Shown piece by piece: positions 4 through 4,704 of a stretch of DNA of 4,746 nt. This DNA comes from a virus. Lineage: Duplodnaviria; Heunggongvirae; Uroviricota; Caudoviricetes. Below the pieces are notes generated by a model. The model was given only the letters and a program-made list of their open reading frames with translations, had not been told where the DNA came from and made no database searches. The position numbers and the translations under genes were made by a program. Each line of letters opens with the position of its first letter. The first letter of the stretch is position 1. The stretch is from IMG/VR virus record IMGVR_UViG_2690316028_000005; one strand, 5' to 3'.

Positions 4-170
4 AAATATGCCAACGTTGGCACATTTCAAGTAGCTCAATCATTCCCAGCGCTGGGAATCATCCTCAAAACCGCAAACGTCTGCGGTTTCAGTACAATCA
101 GGTAATATAGATTGGGGAGCTTTACTGGTAGAAATATAACGTTTCAAAAGCGCCAGCGTTGGCGCTTTTG
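4..170. repeat. Cluster of four palindromes/hairpins: 4-27 (24 bp, one mismatched pair), 42-59 (18 bp perfect), 68-89 (8-bp arms, 6-nt centre), 145-170 (10-bp arms, 6-nt centre)
   Basis: Hand reverse-complement checks. Three of the four share a CCA(A/G)CG(T/C)TGG core: CCAACGTTGG 11-20, CCAGCGCTGG 46-55, CCAGCGTTGG 153-162. No ORF of 60 aa or more in the region. Confidence 0.6.
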
Positions 171-201
171 AAGGCTGGCAATATCAATAAGCTAATGATG
201 A

Positions 202-230
202 TTGCATCATCTGTTCCAAGTTAGTACACT
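202..230 (+). promoter_or_regulatory. Putative sigma70 promoter for a small RNA (-35 TTGCAT 202-207, 17-bp spacer, -10 TACACT 225-230)
   Basis: Hexamer spacing read from sequence; predicted start near 237, the first base of the left inverted-repeat arm. Match to consensus is only moderate. Confidence 0.3.
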
Positions 231-236
231 TATCCC

Positions 237-270
237 TGTTAGTGGATGCGTGACGCGCTCAGGTTGAGGC
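237..270. repeat. Left arm of a 34-bp inverted repeat (partner 488-521)
   Basis: Reverse complement of 237-270 equals 488-521 at 33 of 34 positions; the one difference would be a G-U pair if both arms are transcribed from the + strand. Confidence 0.9.
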
Positions 271-311
271 TCATTACCTTGAACAGAGATTCATCACCTT
301 AAGCCCCAAAG

Positions 312-346
312 AAAAAAGCCTGACCTCACCAGTTGGGCTTTTTTTT
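312..346. terminator. Bidirectional rho-independent terminator
   Basis: A-tract 312-317, 7-bp stem 318-324 with 332-338 (GCC/GGC base, two wobbles), 7-nt loop, then T8 at 339-346. The reverse complement also ends in a T-run. Confidence 0.55.
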
Positions 347-368
347 GTCCGTTATTTACTCCAGTCCT

Positions 369-396
369 TTGATTACATTGCTGATACCCTTATAAT
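369..396 (+). promoter_or_regulatory. Putative sigma70 promoter for the toxin mRNA (-35 TTGATT 369-374, 16-bp spacer, -10 TATAAT 391-396)
   Basis: Perfect consensus -10 and TTGA-type -35; predicted start near 403, giving a leader of about 190 nt before the ORF at 593. No LexA box (CTGT-N8-ACAG) seen. Confidence 0.5.
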
Positions 397-487
397 CACG
401 GCGTTAGTGGGTGTCGCGTTCTGACACAACGCAGGCATGTGAAACGTGTTCAAGCCCTGGCTGGATTACGGGTGGTGCCGCTCCAGT

Positions 488-521
488 GCCTCAACCTGAG
501 CGCGTCATGCATCCACTAACA
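488..521. repeat. Right arm of the 34-bp inverted repeat; proposed sRNA target site in the toxin mRNA leader
   Basis: Partner of 237-270. Lies 61-94 nt upstream of the GGAG at 582-585 and overlaps an AUG at 507 that heads a 9-codon upstream ORF. Confidence 0.9.
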
Positions 522-592
522 ATGCAACACCGTTAACCAGGCAGTGGAAGGGCTTTAACGATGATGCCGCGCTCCTGTAGTGGAGCAAACGG

Positions 593-676
593 ATGAAGGG
601 ATTTCTTCAAATCGCTGTCATCGCTCTTAAGGCGATTGTTGCCTTTATTGAGTTGATTCTGGCCTGCTTACCGTAA
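593..676 (+). CDS. 27-aa hydrophobic single-helix peptide, candidate TisB-like type I toxin (MKGFLQIAVIALKAIVAFIELILACLP)
   Basis: Hand translation; below the ORF-track size cutoff. GGAG 582-585 sits 7 nt before the ATG; in-frame TAG at 578-580 rules out an upstream extension. Resembles E. coli TisB as I recall it (MNLVDIAILILKLIVAALQLLDAVLKYLK): about half of the 20 core positions identical, including the helix-embedded Lys. Confidence 0.5.
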   Translation: MKGFLQIAVIALKAIVAFIELILACLP

Positions 677-695
677 GCGGTCAGGAAACGTAAGT

Positions 696-733
696 AAGGC
701 CACCGGCTCACCCCCGGTGGCCTTTAACATTTC
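696..733 (+). terminator. GC-rich hairpin (11-bp stem 696-706 with 714-724, 7-nt loop) followed by TTTAACATTT; possible 3' end of the toxin transcript
   Basis: Perfect 11-bp stem verified by hand, 20 nt after the toxin stop. The U-tract is interrupted, so termination efficiency is uncertain. Confidence 0.4.
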
Positions 734-928: not shown

Positions 929-1273
929 ATGGCACGACCTCAGACGGTTAATCAGTTACCCGACCCGATCAAGAAAGAACTTAATAAAAAGCTGACCGAA
1001 AGTTCATTCAGCGGTTACGTTCAGCTTACTGAGTGGTTAAACTCGTTGGGATACCCGGTTTCAAAATCATCATTGCATCGCTATGCTGAACGCCGCCGCC
1101 TGTCGCTTATTGCAGGGAGCGATGCTCCTGGTGCAACAGCTAATATTGTGGATATTAAACTTCGCTGTCTGGAGATTGCCTCGCTCTGTTTAAAAACCGA
1201 CGAAAAGCTGCCAACAGATGAAGTAACAAAACACGCTGAAAATTTGATGGGGTGGCTTTACGACCAGAAATAA
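929..1273 (+). CDS. Hypothetical small protein (114 aa), possibly a helix-turn-helix DNA-binding or terminase small-subunit-like protein
   Basis: ORF-track ORF with ATG start and AAGG 11 nt upstream. The N-terminal pattern (QLPDPIKKEL...SLHRYAERRR) recalls small phage DNA-binding proteins; family assignment is from memory and unverified. Confidence 0.65.
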   Translation: MARPQTVNQLPDPIKKELNKKLTESSFSGYVQLTEWLNSLGYPVSKSSLHRYAERRRLSLIAGSDAPGATANIVDIKLRCLEIASLCLKTDEKLPTDEVTKHAENLMGWLYDQK

Positions 1274-2875: not shown

Positions 2876-3085
2876 ATGAACTTTGATATGCGTACAAACC
2901 AAAATTGTGCATCGTTTTTTAACCCAGCAACCAAGGCGTTTGTCGTCGTTGATTCGTTTGACAACTACGAATTCGATGTGCGTGCTGGTACTTTATCACG
3001 CACTGAATTTGTAGGCACCATCACAGCTTCAAACGATGAAGAGTTGAACAAGAAATTAGCTGAGATCACGGCTGCACACATATGA
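2876..3085 (+). CDS. Small acidic hypothetical protein (69 aa); first gene of the AT-rich cargo operon
   Basis: AGGAGG 2865-2870 is 5 nt before the ATG. About 37-40% GC by hand count against about 55-60% in the upstream genes. I count 10 Asp/Glu and 6 Lys/Arg; no hydrophobic segment. Confidence 0.7.
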   Translation: MNFDMRTNQNCASFFNPATKAFVVVDSFDNYEFDVRAGTLSRTEFVGTITASNDEELNKKLAEITAAHI

Positions 3086-3456
3086 TAACTCAACAGCAGA
3101 TTGATGATTTAGTTGCAGATATTAACGATATCTTGGAAGAAGATAGAGCCAAGCTAAAGATGTCATTTCATTTTGCTGTTGATAGACTTAATGATCCGCG
3201 TAATAAACCTCCAATCACGTTAGCTGAGTTGAGAGTGATTTTTACAAATTTCATTGGACAACACTTGCAGACAATTCTAGGCAAAGATGAGGGATTTTCC
3301 TTCACTATCAAGTGTCAGAAATCTGGTATTGCTATACCGTGCGCTATAGAGCATGAACTTGATATCGGTGCAAAGTGGGTAGTTCAGCAAGTGATCACCA
3401 TCATGCGGAATCCGCAGTTTAACGCGTATCATGGTGATGTCATCTTTGATGTTTAA
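3082..3456 (+). CDS. Hypothetical protein (124 aa); second gene of the cargo operon, translationally coupled
   Basis: Its ATG overlaps the upstream stop in ATGA at 3082-3085. Acidic by my count (17 Asp/Glu, 12 Lys/Arg). An H-x4-R-x4-R motif (HFAVDRLNDPR) is present but I cannot assign a family. Confidence 0.7.
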   Translation: MITQQQIDDLVADINDILEEDRAKLKMSFHFAVDRLNDPRNKPPITLAELRVIFTNFIGQHLQTILGKDEGFSFTIKCQKSGIAIPCAIEHELDIGAKWVVQQVITIMRNPQFNAYHGDVIFDV

Positions 3457-3483
3457 AAGAAAGGCGCTATAGCGCCTTTTTTA
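3455..3483. terminator. Bidirectional rho-independent terminator shared by the cargo operon and the convergent integrase
   Basis: A-rich run, perfect palindrome GGCGCTATAGCGCC at 3463-3476, then TTTTTT at 3477-3482. The integrase stop codon (complement of 3481-3483) lies in the T-tract. Confidence 0.7.
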
Positions 3484-4704
3484 TAAACACGGATAACTGA
3501 CCAACTCCACATACTCCCATAGTTCTTTCATCCCTGCTCCCTTGCTATATGTCCTGAAAGCTTCCGTTTTAGCTTTTTGTTCGGTATGCCCGGTTATTGC
3601 CCCTATGCGCTGTTCTGGTACTCCTGCTCTGTCTAAGCAAGTAATAAAGTGACCACGCAGGGAGTGGAAGCATTGGCGATCTGTAGCCGCTGACAGCACG
3701 CGACGGCGTAGCCGTGTAAATGCCTGCGAGTACCACGGGCCACGCTTACCGTCGGCACGTTTAATCTTGTTCGATTGGGGGAGCAGGTATTCACCGTTGT
3801 TCTGCGCAAGGTATTTATCAACGATGCTGATTAACAGCGAGTGTATGGGGACGTGCCTTACACCCGCTTTAGTTTTAGATTTGCTGACGTAGAAGCAGCG
3901 TACCCCTTCAACTTTGATAATCTCAACTCGTTTGATGCTGGCGATTTCGTCGAGACGCATACCGGAATACAAACCGATTATGATTACGTCTCGTATCTCG
4001 CTACCTGCCTCTTTTATTAATGCCTGTAGCTGGTGTAGTTCAAAAGGTTGATAACTTTCGTTCGTCTGGCGGGCTTCCAGATTGTGGCCGTGAAAGGGAT
4101 TATCAGGGGCGATATTGTCATATTTACGCCGGGCGAAGTCATACAGCGTCCCTAAGCAGGTTAACCAGTTTTGCAGCGTCTGGCGGGAAAACTTATCTTG
4201 GTTCGCTTCCAGAAAGTCAGAGACGAGCCGCCGCCCGATTCCATTTATTGTAATGGTTGGGCGTTTTATTGAATTAGTAAATGCCGATACAGCGCGAACT
4301 GATTTACTCAGCGTGGAATAAGAGCGCCGATCTTTGTATTGCTCTGCATATTCTTTACTGACATCTGTCAATTTTGGTGATGCTGGTTTTCCCCGCTCTG
4401 CTGGAATAGTTGCGGGTGTGGTAATGCTGCTGGATACCCCCGCCAGCAAGTGAAGATCTGTTACAGCGGAATGAATCCGGGTAATGGGGTTATCCGGTTT
4501 CATCATGAGCTGTAGCTTACGGAACTCTAATAAATATTGGTCACGGAAAATGCGAGCTTGCATGATGTCCCGTGTGCCTGTCGATTTCTTGAGCGAGCGC
4601 CGCCCGTTCCAGAGGTGGCGCATGTAGACCGGAATATAGATTTGAAAGATGAATATCCCATCTTTGTTTGCATAAAGATAAGAAGTCTTCGGTAATGACT
4701 CCAA
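3481..4704 (-). CDS. int: Tyrosine site-specific recombinase (phage-type integrase, 407 aa as tracked)
   Basis: C-terminal catalytic signature: Arg in YSGMRLDEI, HSLRGHF (H-x-x-R), then GH and Tyr in FRTYSKG. The N-terminus (LPKTSYLYANKDG...NGRRSLKKSTGTRD) resembles lambda/P22-type arm-binding domains as I recall them. The tracked start is TTG at 4704 with a weak ribosome-binding site; the next ATG is at 4623. Confidence 0.85.
   Translation of the reverse strand: MESLPKTSYLYANKDGIFIFQIYIPVYMRHLWNGRRSLKKSTGTRDIMQARIFRDQYLLEFRKLQLMMKPDNPITRIHSAVTDLHLLAGVSSSITTPATIPAERGKPASPKLTDVSKEYAEQYKDRRSYSTLSKSVRAVSAFTNSIKRPTITINGIGRRLVSDFLEANQDKFSRQTLQNWLTCLGTLYDFARRKYDNIAPDNPFHGHNLEARQTNESYQPFELHQLQALIKEAGSEIRDVIIIGLYSGMRLDEIASIKRVEIIKVEGVRCFYVSKSKTKAGVRHVPIHSLLISIVDKYLAQNNGEYLLPQSNKIKRADGKRGPWYSQAFTRLRRRVLSAATDRQCFHSLRGHFITCLDRAGVPEQRIGAITGHTEQKAKTEAFRTYSKGAGMKELWEYVELVSYPCL

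What the first reader, a model, noticed from the sequence alone, without database searches (positions are those of the whole stretch)
237..521. 34-bp inverted repeat placed as an sRNA-target pair: a tandem, same-strand antisense RNA
Bases 237-270 and 488-521 are reverse complements at 33 of 34 positions, and the single difference becomes a G-U pair if both are transcribed from the + strand. The left arm begins where a candidate promoter (202-230) would start transcription and is followed by a terminator (312-346). The right arm lies in the leader of the toxin mRNA, 61-94 nt upstream of its ribosome-binding site. That predicts a roughly 110-nt sRNA whose 5' end forms a 34-bp duplex with the leader, as IstR-1 does with tisAB. 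As I recall, istR and tisAB are divergent so their complementarity is a direct repeat in DNA; here the two would be co-oriented and the complementarity is an inverted repeat, which would be an unusual arrangement.
Basis: partly seen in the sequence, partly recalled or inferred. Interest (0 to 1): 0.85.

Follow-up and report, generated by a model that had tools for sequence, protein, structure and literature searches.

The report
Same-strand antitoxin RNA beside toxin gene
This is a small toxin gene silenced by a short RNA, a relative of E. coli's dinQ/agrB and tisB/istR systems, but the silencing RNA gene points the same way as the toxin gene rather than away from it, and neither gene is annotated anywhere.

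Summary
The 34-nt inverted repeat is real: 237-270 and 488-521 match at 33/34, the one difference being a G·U pair. It is far beyond chance.

It belongs to a ~550-bp type I toxin-antitoxin cassette:
- weak promoter P1 (202-230)
- ~110-nt sRNA (237-346)
- strong promoter P2 (369-396)
- long leader
- 27-aa hydrophobic toxin (593-676)

The leader carries the motif CCTGG…GGGTGGTGCCG…CAGGCAG, which I also found in tisB, dinQ and zorO leaders. The 34-nt target sits where AgrB pairs with dinQ mRNA.

The + strand sRNA is supported three ways:
- A covariance model built only from divergent-family sRNAs hits 263-343 on + (42 bits, E 4e-9) against 13 bits on −.
- Across 12 distinct tandem loci the arms stay 96.8% paired, and 14 of 34 pairs change on both sides.
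- Nearly all single changes give G·U pairs that work only for + strand RNAs.

Of 82 related loci, 50 are clearly divergent and 9 weakly so. Eighteen, in three lineages, are tandem.

It is an orientation variant of a known kind, closest to DinQ/AgrB. It has no LexA box, and no DinQ, DqlB or TisB protein model recognises the toxin.

The parts
202..230 (+). P1, candidate sigma-70 promoter of the sRNA (-35 TTGCAT 202-207, 17-nt spacer, -10 TACACT 225-230)
   Evidence: Read from sequence. It matches 7/12, below the threshold of the scan. Both hexamers are conserved while the spacer and discriminator vary in L008, L010 and L087. Equivalent + strand promoters sit in front of the arm in L101 (TTGAAA-17-TAAACT) and L042 (TTGAGT-16-TATAGT).
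237..346 (+). Predicted ~110-nt antitoxin sRNA (AgrB/OrzO/IstR-1-like)
   Evidence: Model R1, built from divergent-family sRNAs, hits 263-343 on + at 42.3 bits, E 4e-9. Rfam gives sub-threshold hits for OrzO-P at 272-343 (23.9 bits) and AgrB at 239-346 (19.2 bits), both on +. No transcript data.
237..270 (+). sRNA 5' arm, the 34-nt antisense element
310..347 (+). sRNA intrinsic terminator (stem 310-324/332-346, loop CUCACCA, 8-U tail)
   Evidence: Fold. The loop motif CUCACCAG is shared, on the RNA strand, with OrzO, pOXA-48 agrB and many relatives.
369..396 (+). P2, toxin promoter TTGATT-16-TATAAT
   Evidence: 10/12, the only promoter-like site found in 1-1000. Conserved in all window-type loci.
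403..730 (+). Predicted toxin mRNA (190-nt leader, ORF, terminator)
   Evidence: Start inferred from P2. The fold is more stable than shuffles (z = -3.4).
403..413 (+). mRNA 5' end GUUAGUGGGUG, a degenerate copy of the sRNA 5' end that pairs in cis with 510-520
   Evidence: MFE and centroid folds. It covaries in L042 (GUUAGUUGA / UCAACUAAC). It corresponds to the a/a' duplex described for dinQ (PMC5066626).
456..480 (+). Conserved leader motif CCTGG-N9-GGGTGGTGCCG
   Evidence: Shared with K-12 tisAB and dinQ leaders and with about 60 enterobacterial loci.
488..521 (+). Target arm in the leader, 61-94 nt upstream of the SD
   Evidence: It lies in the same register as the AgrB target in dinQ, directly after GGGTGGTGCCG and ending in CTAACAATG.
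498..504 (+). GAGCGCG inside the target, complementary to 568-574 (the dinQ-type 'element 2')
   Evidence: Read from sequence. The complementarity is kept in L042 (GAGUGUG/CGCGCUC, with G·U pairs) and L101. In K-12 dinQ other letters fill the same places (GGAGUGAG/CUCACUCC). Thermodynamic folding does not predict this pairing.
571..586 (+). Hairpin closing the Shine-Dalgarno sequence (stem 571-575/582-586; GGAG at 582-585)
   Evidence: Base-pair probabilities of at least 0.92 in all isoforms starting at 403-470, falling to 0.56 for a start at 485.
593..676 (+). Toxin ORF, 27 aa, MKGFLQIAVIALKAIVAFIELILACLP
   Evidence: Between window and L010, 8 of 10 internal codon changes are synonymous and the other 2 are I->L and F->L; the start codon is ATG->GTG. 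No match in NCBIfam or Pfam. The exact sequence is absent from the 15-billion-protein collection.
696..724 (+). Stem-loop ending the toxin mRNA (GGCCACCGG-CUCACCC-CCGGUGGCC, then UUUAACAUUU)
   Evidence: The tail CCTTTAACATTT is also found after dinQ.

Best explanation
The region is a mobile type I toxin-antitoxin cassette of about 550 bp (roughly 185-735). It belongs to the tisB/istR-1, dinQ/agrB and zorO/orzO superfamily and is closest to dinQ/agrB. P2 (369-396) drives an mRNA with a 190-nt leader encoding a 27-aa hydrophobic, presumably membrane-damaging peptide (593-676). P1 (202-230) drives a ~110-nt sRNA (237-346) from the SAME strand, ending at its own terminator 23 bp before the -35 hexamer of P2. 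The first 34 nt of the sRNA pair with leader positions 488-521. By homology with DinQ/AgrB and TisB/IstR-1, this duplex keeps the leader in the form whose Shine-Dalgarno hairpin (571-586) stays closed, or blocks a ribosome standby site. It also creates an RNase III substrate, so no toxin is made while the sRNA is present. The primary mRNA is probably self-repressed as well: its 5' end is a degenerate copy of the sRNA 5' end and pairs with 510-520, so it would need 5' processing to become translatable. There is no LexA box and the cassette rides on mobile DNA, so it most likely acts as an addiction or stabilisation module rather than an SOS-induced toxin. Shown here: the repeat, homology of leader and sRNA, the sRNA strand, covariation, and the orientation contrast with relatives. 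Inferred: transcription starts, toxicity, RNase III cleavage, 5' processing and biological role.
For: - Repeat: 34 nt, 33/34 complementary, against at most 21 nt in shuffles.
- Leader homology: CCTGG…ACGGGTGGTGCCG and CTAACAATG…CAGGCAGTGGA are shared with K-12 dinQ and tisAB, and the target is in the same register as the 34-nt AgrB site.
- sRNA strand: an independent covariance model gives 42.3 bits (E 4e-9) on + and 13.2 bits on -. Sub-threshold Rfam OrzO-P and AgrB hits are also on +.
- Covariation: 96.8% of cells are paired, 14/34 pairs change on both sides, 0/500 shuffles reach this, and slid registers give 28-45% pairing. L101 even has a matching 1-nt deletion in both arms.
- Strand asymmetry: in the window clade I count 8 transitions giving G·U against 1 giving A·C. 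Duplex energies are better for + strand RNAs than for their - strand complements, for example -67.8 vs -48.2 kcal/mol in L087 and -46.0 vs -33.8 in L042.
- Specificity: cognate sRNA/target pairs are the most stable across the three lineages, and sRNAs within the window clade cross-pair about as well as cognates.
- Promoters: + strand promoters sit 6-7 nt upstream of the arm in all three tandem lineages.
- ORF: the toxin ORF shows a purifying-selection pattern.
- Mechanistic precedent: the dinQ +1/+44 isoforms, the 34-bp AgrB duplex and RNase III (PMC5066626); compensatory mutations proving base-pairing for pOXA-48 dqlB/agrB (PMC12365149).
Against: - No RNA-seq, Northern or 5'-end data were available, so neither RNA is shown to exist.
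- P1 is weak by consensus (7/12) and was not called by the scan.
- The toxin matches no DinQ, DqlB or TisB profile, and its toxicity is untested.
- Thermodynamic folding predicts the SD hairpin closed in every isoform tested. It gives no computational support for a dinQ-type opening switch after 5' processing.
- L002/L102 carry an uncompensated U·U mismatch and L010 an A·C mismatch.
- The arms of L042 and L101 were located by searching for complementarity, which inflates the pairing count for those two rows.
Confidence: 0.8

Rival explanations
1. The two arms act mainly in cis. Transcription from P1 reads through the 310-347 stem-loop, which would be an attenuator rather than a full terminator. 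The resulting long RNA folds the 34-bp helix around the 217-nt insert. This silences or destroys toxin messages that begin upstream. There would be no free, trans-acting sRNA of consequence.
For: A hypothetical 237-724 RNA is predicted to pair 237-270 with 488-521 position for position (MFE -208 kcal/mol). Only a co-oriented arrangement makes this possible.
Against: The terminator has a 15-bp stem and an 8-U tail and is homologous to the terminators of free sRNAs in relatives. P2 is the strongest promoter-like site in the region and would make mRNAs lacking the left arm, which would then go unrepressed. In L042 an inserted element of about 125 bp separates the sRNA terminator from the toxin promoter, yet arm complementarity is kept.
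Confidence: 0.1
2. The inverted repeat is a DNA-level feature, such as the terminal inverted repeats of a miniature transposable element or a recombination site, and has no RNA function.
For: Two 34-bp inverted repeats flanking about 217 bp resemble a small non-autonomous transposon in outline. The cassette also sits in mobile DNA.
Against: There is one copy per genome; the extra BLAST 'places' are just the arms hitting each other. No target-site duplication is visible at 232-236 versus 522-526. The right arm is homologous to the sRNA target of dinQ-type leaders that have no inverted repeat. Substitutions favour G·U, an RNA-specific and strand-specific signature. Conserved homology extends well outside the arms, to about 185 and 735.
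Confidence: 0.02
3. The cassette is a decaying remnant. The sRNA gene was inverted by accident and one or both partners are no longer expressed.
For: P1 is weak (7/12). The locus is rare (9 of 5426 E. coli genomes) and some copies lie in degraded prophages. The copy in Ca. Erwinia dacicola carries five G·U pairs.
Against: The tandem layout is kept in three lineages whose leader-plus-ORF DNA is only 64-69% identical, with co-varying arms. The ORF changes mostly synonymously. Both promoters and both terminators are conserved.
Confidence: 0.06

Closest known systems
dinQ/agrB of E. coli K-12 and the plasmid dqlB/agrB systems (DinQ-like, Dql)
   Same: Small hydrophobic toxin of 26-31 aa. Long leader with the motif CCTGG…GGGTGGTGCCG, followed directly by a ~34-nt sRNA target ending in CTAAC, then CAGGCAGTGGA. 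A hairpin sequesters the SD. The mRNA 5' end starts GUUAG and pairs with the end of the target. The sRNA starts (G)UUAG, and many family members have the terminator loop CUCACCAG. The tail after the ORF is GAAACGTAA-TAAGG…CCTTTAACATTT.
   Different: agrB is transcribed divergently, so its complement is a direct repeat in DNA (K-12, pOXA-48, 13 further loci). Here it is co-oriented. dinQ has a LexA box; here there is none near either promoter. The window toxin fails the NCBIfam DinQ and DqlB models. The sRNA is about 25 nt longer and fails Rfam AgrB (19.2 vs 40 bits).
tisB/istR-1
   Same: Same leader motif. The toxin core is similar (window IAVIALKAIVAFIELI vs TisB IAILILKLIVAALQLL). The sRNA 5' end pairs far upstream of a structured ribosome-binding site. 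The predicted SD hairpin stays closed in all isoforms, as reported for tisB (PMC5066626, PMC7708055).
   Different: istR-1 is divergent, as in 35 clear and 9 weak TisB-like loci. The IstR-1 duplex is about 21 nt, and in K-12 the target lies further from the motif. tisB is LexA-regulated. The Pfam and NCBIfam TisB models do not match the window toxin.
zorO/orzO
   Same: Best Rfam hit for the sRNA 3' half (OrzO-P, shared UUAAGCC…AAAG…CCUCACCAG). ZorO-like loci carry the same leader motif (L011, L041, L061).
   Different: It is divergent with shorter complementarity. The ZorO peptide is unrelated in detail. The Rfam score of 23.9 is below the gathering score of 60.
hok/sok-type fold-back control
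   Same: The mRNA 5' end pairs with an internal segment to keep the primary transcript inert.
   Different: In hok/sok the antisense RNA overlaps its target gene, and the fold-back joins the 5' and 3' ends (from my own knowledge). There is no sequence relationship.

Membership tests
Type I toxin-antitoxin, tisB/dinQ/zorO superfamily (non-overlapping sRNA) | Long 5' leader carrying the conserved motif CCTGG-N-GGGTGGTGCCG … CAGGCAG upstream of a small hydrophobic ORF | tested here: met
   Window 456-544. The same pattern retrieves TisB-like, DinQ-like and ZorO-like loci in about 60 Enterobacterales genomes. The motif as a superfamily marker is my own observation, not a published definition.
Type I toxin-antitoxin, tisB/dinQ/zorO superfamily (non-overlapping sRNA) | sRNA gene next to the toxin gene, whose 5' end is complementary to the leader well upstream of the ribosome-binding site | tested here: met
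   34-nt complementarity at 237-270/488-521. Covariation; sRNA homology.
Type I toxin-antitoxin, tisB/dinQ/zorO superfamily (non-overlapping sRNA) | sRNA gene upstream of and divergent from the toxin gene. This is my reading of the fixed gene organisation that T1TAdb (PMC8594479) requires when pairing mRNA and asRNA; the passages I read state only that the asRNA lies 5' of the mRNA without overlap. | tested here: not met
   The complement is an inverted repeat, not a direct one. 18 loci are tandem against 50 clearly divergent.
Type I toxin-antitoxin, tisB/dinQ/zorO superfamily (non-overlapping sRNA) | The peptide is toxic when over-produced, and the sRNA relieves the toxicity by base-pairing | not testable with these tools
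   Needs expression assays. Shown for relatives only (PMC12365149, PMC12317039).
DinQ/AgrB proper | Toxin matches NCBIfam NF041472 (toxin_DinQ) or NF041473 (DqlB) | tested here: not met
   No hit for the window toxin even at E<=10. The L042 toxin scores 34.6 bits against a cutoff of 30.
DinQ/AgrB proper | sRNA reaches the Rfam AgrB (RF02891) gathering score | tested here: not met
   19.2 bits against 40.
DinQ/AgrB proper | LexA box at the toxin promoter (SOS induction) | tested here: not met
   With at most 1 mismatch, CTGT-N8-ACAG matches only at 1100, 2360, 2484 and 3681, none near 190-410.
DinQ/AgrB proper | Mutually exclusive leader pairings 1:2, 2:3 and 3:4 that open the SD after 5' processing | tested here: inconclusive
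   The complementary segments exist (444-452/496-504; 498-504/568-574; 571-575/582-586). Folding nevertheless keeps the SD hairpin closed in all truncations.
TisB/IstR-1 | Toxin matches Pfam PF13939 or NCBIfam TisB models; sRNA matches Rfam IstR | tested here: not met
   No hits.
ZorO/OrzO | sRNA reaches the Rfam OrzO-P (RF02083) gathering score | tested here: not met
   23.9 bits against 60.
Miniature inverted-repeat transposable element | Multiple dispersed copies bounded by the repeats and flanked by target-site duplications | tested here: not met
   One copy per genome. No flanking duplication. Conservation extends beyond the arms.

The most novel reading that the evidence does not exclude
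The co-orientation may be functional rather than neutral. Because the antitoxin sequence lies upstream on the same strand, any transcript entering from P1 or from neighbouring mobile-element genes and reading through the terminator carries its own antidote in cis. It would fold into a 34-bp RNase III substrate. This would insulate the toxin from outside transcription and couple toxin output to terminator efficiency. P1 traffic could also occlude P2. That would be a built-in fail-safe that divergent relatives lack, and could explain why this layout persists in cassettes that hop between prophages and plasmids.
Probability: 0.25. Interest if true: 0.65.

Novelty: new variant of a known kind. Interest (0 to 1): 0.5.

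Why it matters
1. For this superfamily, the divergent layout of toxin and sRNA genes is a habit rather than a rule. Three lineages keep a tandem, same-strand layout with co-varying arms.

2. Detection pipelines that require a fixed orientation (T1TAdb, PMC8594479) or known toxin profiles will miss such loci. This toxin is absent from NCBIfam, Pfam and a 15-billion-protein collection, and nothing is annotated under the locus in nine RefSeq E. coli genomes or a Citrobacter plasmid.

3. One leader motif retrieves tisB-, dinQ- and zorO-type loci together. This argues for common ancestry of families that a 2024 paper says had not been linked (PMC11264685).

4. The tandem layout allows a simple test of whether cis read-through self-silencing adds a safety layer.

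5. The cassette travels on prophage remnants and a conjugative plasmid, so it is a candidate stabilisation module. Plasmid dqlB/agrB relatives were shown to be such modules in 2025.

Tried and rejected
- blastn of the cassette against phage records found nothing. Against plasmids it found only one Citrobacter IncFIC plasmid.
- A second viral scan with a looser motif returned only the four known loci plus chance hits in GC-rich DNA.
- I tried to show a dinQ-type structural switch by folding 5'-truncated and sRNA-blocked leaders. The SD hairpin stayed closed in every case, so the test does not discriminate between the dinQ and tisB (standby) mechanisms.
- There is no LexA regulation: no box near either promoter.
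- The transposon reading was rejected (see rivals).
- Literature searches for a described same-strand type I system found none. The library lacks most subscription journals, so absence is not proof.
- The supplement of Kristiansen et al. 2016 is not held. I therefore could not check whether their unlisted 'dql' genes include this clade.
- Script caveat: alignment files overwrote some locus ids. Counts and the tree were recomputed correctly.
- The NJ tree is unbootstrapped and rests on about 240 nt. It cannot decide whether the inversion happened once or twice.

Full report
**Observation.** The repeat exists exactly as described.
- Arms 237-270 and 488-521 are 34 nt long, 33/34 complementary and 217 nt apart. 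This is the longest inverted repeat in the window.
- The one exception is G250 opposite T508, a G·U pair if both arms are + strand RNA.
- In 200 composition-preserving shuffles the longest repeat with at most one mismatch was 21 nt.
- The surrounding signals are also present:
  - TTGCAT-17-TACACT at 202-230. It matches only 7/12 and is therefore absent from the scan.
  - A long stem with an 8-U tail at about 310-347.
  - TTGATT-16-TATAAT at 369-396, the only promoter-like site reported in the first kilobase.
  - GGAG at 582-585, seven bases before the ATG of a 27-codon ORF at 593-676.

**What family it belongs to.**
- The ORF encodes MKGFLQIAVIALKAIVAFIELILACLP, a single hydrophobic helix.
- Comparison with the K-12 tisB/istR and dinQ/agrAB loci showed shared leader blocks. 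The window leader has CCTGG-N-ACGGGTGGTGCCG (456-480) and, further on, CTAACAATG…CAGGCAGTGGA.
- The right arm sits immediately after GGGTGGTGCCG and ends in CTAACA. This is the position and length of the 34-nt AgrB target in dinQ mRNA (PMC5066626).
- A pattern built from these blocks retrieved 4 viral and 84 genomic loci. A narrower pattern retrieved 13 metagenomic loci.
- About 60 of the genomic loci are from Enterobacterales. They encode TisB-like, DinQ/Dql-like, ZorO-like or window-type peptides just downstream.
- The remaining roughly 20 are chance hits in GC-rich genomes and serve as a noise control.
- The locus is therefore a member of one superfamily of type I toxin-antitoxin systems.
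- Its toxin is an unrecognised branch:
  - No NCBIfam or Pfam model matches it.
  - The exact peptide is absent from a 15-billion-protein collection.
  - Nothing is annotated under the locus in nine RefSeq E. coli genomes or in a Citrobacter plasmid.

**Is the left arm really the 5' end of a + strand sRNA?** Three independent lines say yes.

1. Homology.
   - I extracted the sRNAs of divergently arranged relatives.
   - I aligned 22 of them, with no tandem locus included, and built a covariance model.
   - The model hits the window at 263-343 on the + strand with 42.3 bits (E 4e-9). The same hairpin read on the - strand scores 13.2 bits.
   - The asymmetry comes largely from the terminator loop CUCACCAG. 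On the RNA strand this loop is shared with OrzO, pOXA-48 agrB and many others.
   - Rfam's OrzO-P and AgrB models give sub-threshold hits at the same place and strand.
2. Promoters.
   - The two P1 hexamers are conserved while the spacer and the bases after the -10 vary.
   - The two other tandem lineages have their own + strand promoters ending 6-7 nt before the arm. L101 has TTGAAA-17-TAAACT and L042 has TTGAGT-16-TATAGT.
3. Covariation.
   - I counted 12 distinct arm pairs from window-type loci, Serratia marcescens L042 and metagenomic L101.
   - 96.8% of cells form standard pairs, and 14 of 34 pairs change on both sides.
   - No shuffle in 500 reaches any of the measures. Sliding the register drops pairing to 28-45%.
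   - Clear examples:

     | Change | Loci |
     |---|---|
     | A-U to U-A at arm position 25 | L005, L007, L008, L010, L087, L104 |
     | G-C to G·U to A-U at position 32 | L008/L087, then L010 |
     | Many double changes | L042, L101 |

   - L101 has a matching one-base deletion in both arms.
   - Single changes are strongly biased. Within the window clade I count eight transitions that give G·U and one that gives A·C, where chance would give equal numbers.
   - Duplexes are correspondingly more stable for + strand RNAs than for their complements (L087 -67.8 vs -48.2 kcal/mol; L042 -46.0 vs -33.8).
   - Across the three lineages cognate sRNA/target pairs are the most stable. Within the window clade the sRNAs cross-pair about as well as cognates.
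   - Caveat: the arms of L042 and L101 were found by looking for complementarity, so those rows are not fully independent.

**Is the orientation unusual?** I searched the 600 nt upstream of each leader for the best ungapped match to the target or to its reverse complement.

| Toxin type | Tandem (inverted repeat, score ≥15) | Divergent (direct repeat, score ≥15) | Weak direct repeat (11-14) | Unresolved or at a contig edge |
|---|---|---|---|---|
| Window-type | 16 | 0 | 0 | 1 |
| DinQ/Dql-like | 2 (L042, L101) | 13 | 0 | 1 |
| TisB-like | 0 | 35 | 9 | 2 |
| ZorO-like | 0 | 2 | 0 | 1 |

- The best score in either orientation among the 21 chance loci was 11.
- I also checked the experimentally validated dqlB/agrB of pOXA-48 (PMC12365149). 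Its agrB is divergent.
- Full-text searches found no described same-strand system. The library is incomplete.
- An unbootstrapped NJ tree of leader plus ORF places L101 next to the window clade and L042 at the base of the divergent DinQ clade. One or two inversion events are equally possible.

**How it most likely works.** The steps below are inferred from homology, not shown.
- In the MFE fold the mRNA 5' end (403-413, GUUAGUGGGUG) pairs with 510-520, and 444-452 pairs with 496-504. This encloses the target (z = -3.4).
- That 5' end is a degenerate copy of the sRNA 5' end. Compare GTTAGTGGGTG--TCGCGTTCTGAC with GTTAGTGGATGCGTGACGCGCTCAGG.
- This corresponds to the a/a' and 1:2 duplexes that make the primary dinQ transcript inert until about 44 nt are removed (PMC5066626).
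- The target contains GAGCGCG (498-504), which is complementary to CGCGCUC (568-574). The latter overlaps the 5' half of the SD hairpin (571-575/582-586).
- The same complementarity is kept with other letters in dinQ, and with G·U pairs in L042.
- In the dinQ model, sRNA binding removes this competitor so that the SD hairpin closes, and RNase III cuts the 34-bp duplex.
- My folding runs do not reproduce an open state. The hairpin stays closed with probability at least 0.92 in every isoform starting at 403-470, and 0.56 for a start at 485. This is what was reported for tisB, where a standby ribosome is needed (PMC5066626, PMC7708055). I cannot decide between the two variants.
- There is no LexA box near either promoter.
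- The conserved cassette runs from about 185 to 735 and travels with mobile DNA:
  - a Mu Gp27-like gene and a tyrosine integrase in the window
  - a Mu-like prophage remnant in E. coli AW1.7
  - an IncFIC conjugative plasmid in Citrobacter
- A stabilisation or addiction role, as shown for plasmid dqlB/agrB, is therefore the likeliest function.

**Rivals.**
- A purely cis mechanism through terminator read-through is possible only in this layout. A 237-724 RNA is predicted to form the full 34-bp helix. However, the strong terminator and the strong independent P2 argue that trans action is the main mode. I keep cis self-silencing as an added possibility.
- A transposon-end reading is rejected. 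There is a single copy, no flanking duplication, conservation beyond the arms, and RNA-specific substitution bias.
- A decayed remnant is unlikely, given three lineages with conserved promoters, terminators, ORF and co-varying arms.

**Verdict.**
- It works like DinQ/AgrB and TisB/IstR-1 and shares ancestry with them.
- It fails several membership criteria of each named family: toxin profiles, Rfam thresholds, LexA control and divergent orientation.
- It is best called a new orientation variant, with a new toxin branch, of a known kind.
- Interest is moderate. A trans-acting RNA does not need a particular gene orientation, so the mechanism is not overturned.
- The finding still exposes a blind spot in annotation, links families not previously tied together, and offers a testable idea about cis fail-safe silencing.

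Noticed in passing
window 456-548; L003 (K-12 tis locus), L004 (K-12 dinQ locus), L011/L041/L061 (ZorO-like): One leader motif (CCTGG-N5-12-GGGTGGTGCCG … CAGGCAG) retrieves TisB-like, DinQ-like and ZorO-like loci alike. Their sRNAs share a GUU(A/G) start, and many share a CUCACCAG terminator loop. This points to common ancestry of families that a 2024 paper says had not been linked (PMC11264685).
   Followed up: partly
window 403-427 versus 238-263: The toxin mRNA's 5' end is a degenerate copy of the sRNA's 5' end, as if the promoter-plus-start region had been duplicated. Both are predicted to pair with 510-521, so the primary mRNA carries a weak built-in antitoxin mimic. The same holds in L042, with co-varying letters.
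   Followed up: partly
window 652-725: The toxin mRNA terminator (loop CUCACCC) is hit at 22.4 bits by the model built from sRNAs. The sRNA and mRNA terminators therefore resemble each other. The reason is unknown.
   Followed up: no
L042 about 10240-10430 (Serratia marcescens): A segment of about 125 bp is inserted between the sRNA terminator and the toxin promoter. From memory it looks like an ERIC/IRU repeat (…ATCCCCAGGAGCTTAC…AAGTGACTGGGGTGAG…). The arms remain complementary despite the larger spacing.
   Followed up: no
L042 10150-10164: A short GC hairpin followed by seven T lies directly after the 23-nt pairing region. It could give a second, much shorter sRNA isoform in the Serratia lineage.
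   Followed up: no
L087 (Candidatus Erwinia dacicola): This symbiont copy differs from the others at five duplex positions, and all five changes give G·U pairs. This is a striking case of drift constrained by pairing.
   Followed up: partly
L101 (metagenome contig JAAIGF010222908.1), A2 columns 11 and 66: A one-base deletion in the sRNA arm is matched by a one-base deletion at the paired position of the target arm.
   Followed up: partly
window 929-1273, 2237-2674, 2876-3456, 3481-4704: Context genes include a truncated Mu Gp27 / small-terminase-like protein, an endonuclease VII-like protein, two conserved phage proteins of unknown function (PHROG 14630 and 14518) and a tyrosine integrase on the - strand. 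The window looks like part of a small integrative element. The toxin cassette plus the Gp27-like gene recur together in a prophage remnant and on a plasmid.
   Followed up: partly
window 143-172 and 3450-3489: Two perfect or near-perfect palindromic, bidirectional terminator-like hairpins. One lies just left of the cassette and one between the last + strand ORF and the integrase gene.
   Followed up: no
L002 and L102: These copies carry the sRNA-side change (A to T at arm position 25) without the compensating target change, leaving a U·U mismatch. They may be an intermediate on the way to the U-A state seen in L005, L007, L008 and L104.
   Followed up: no
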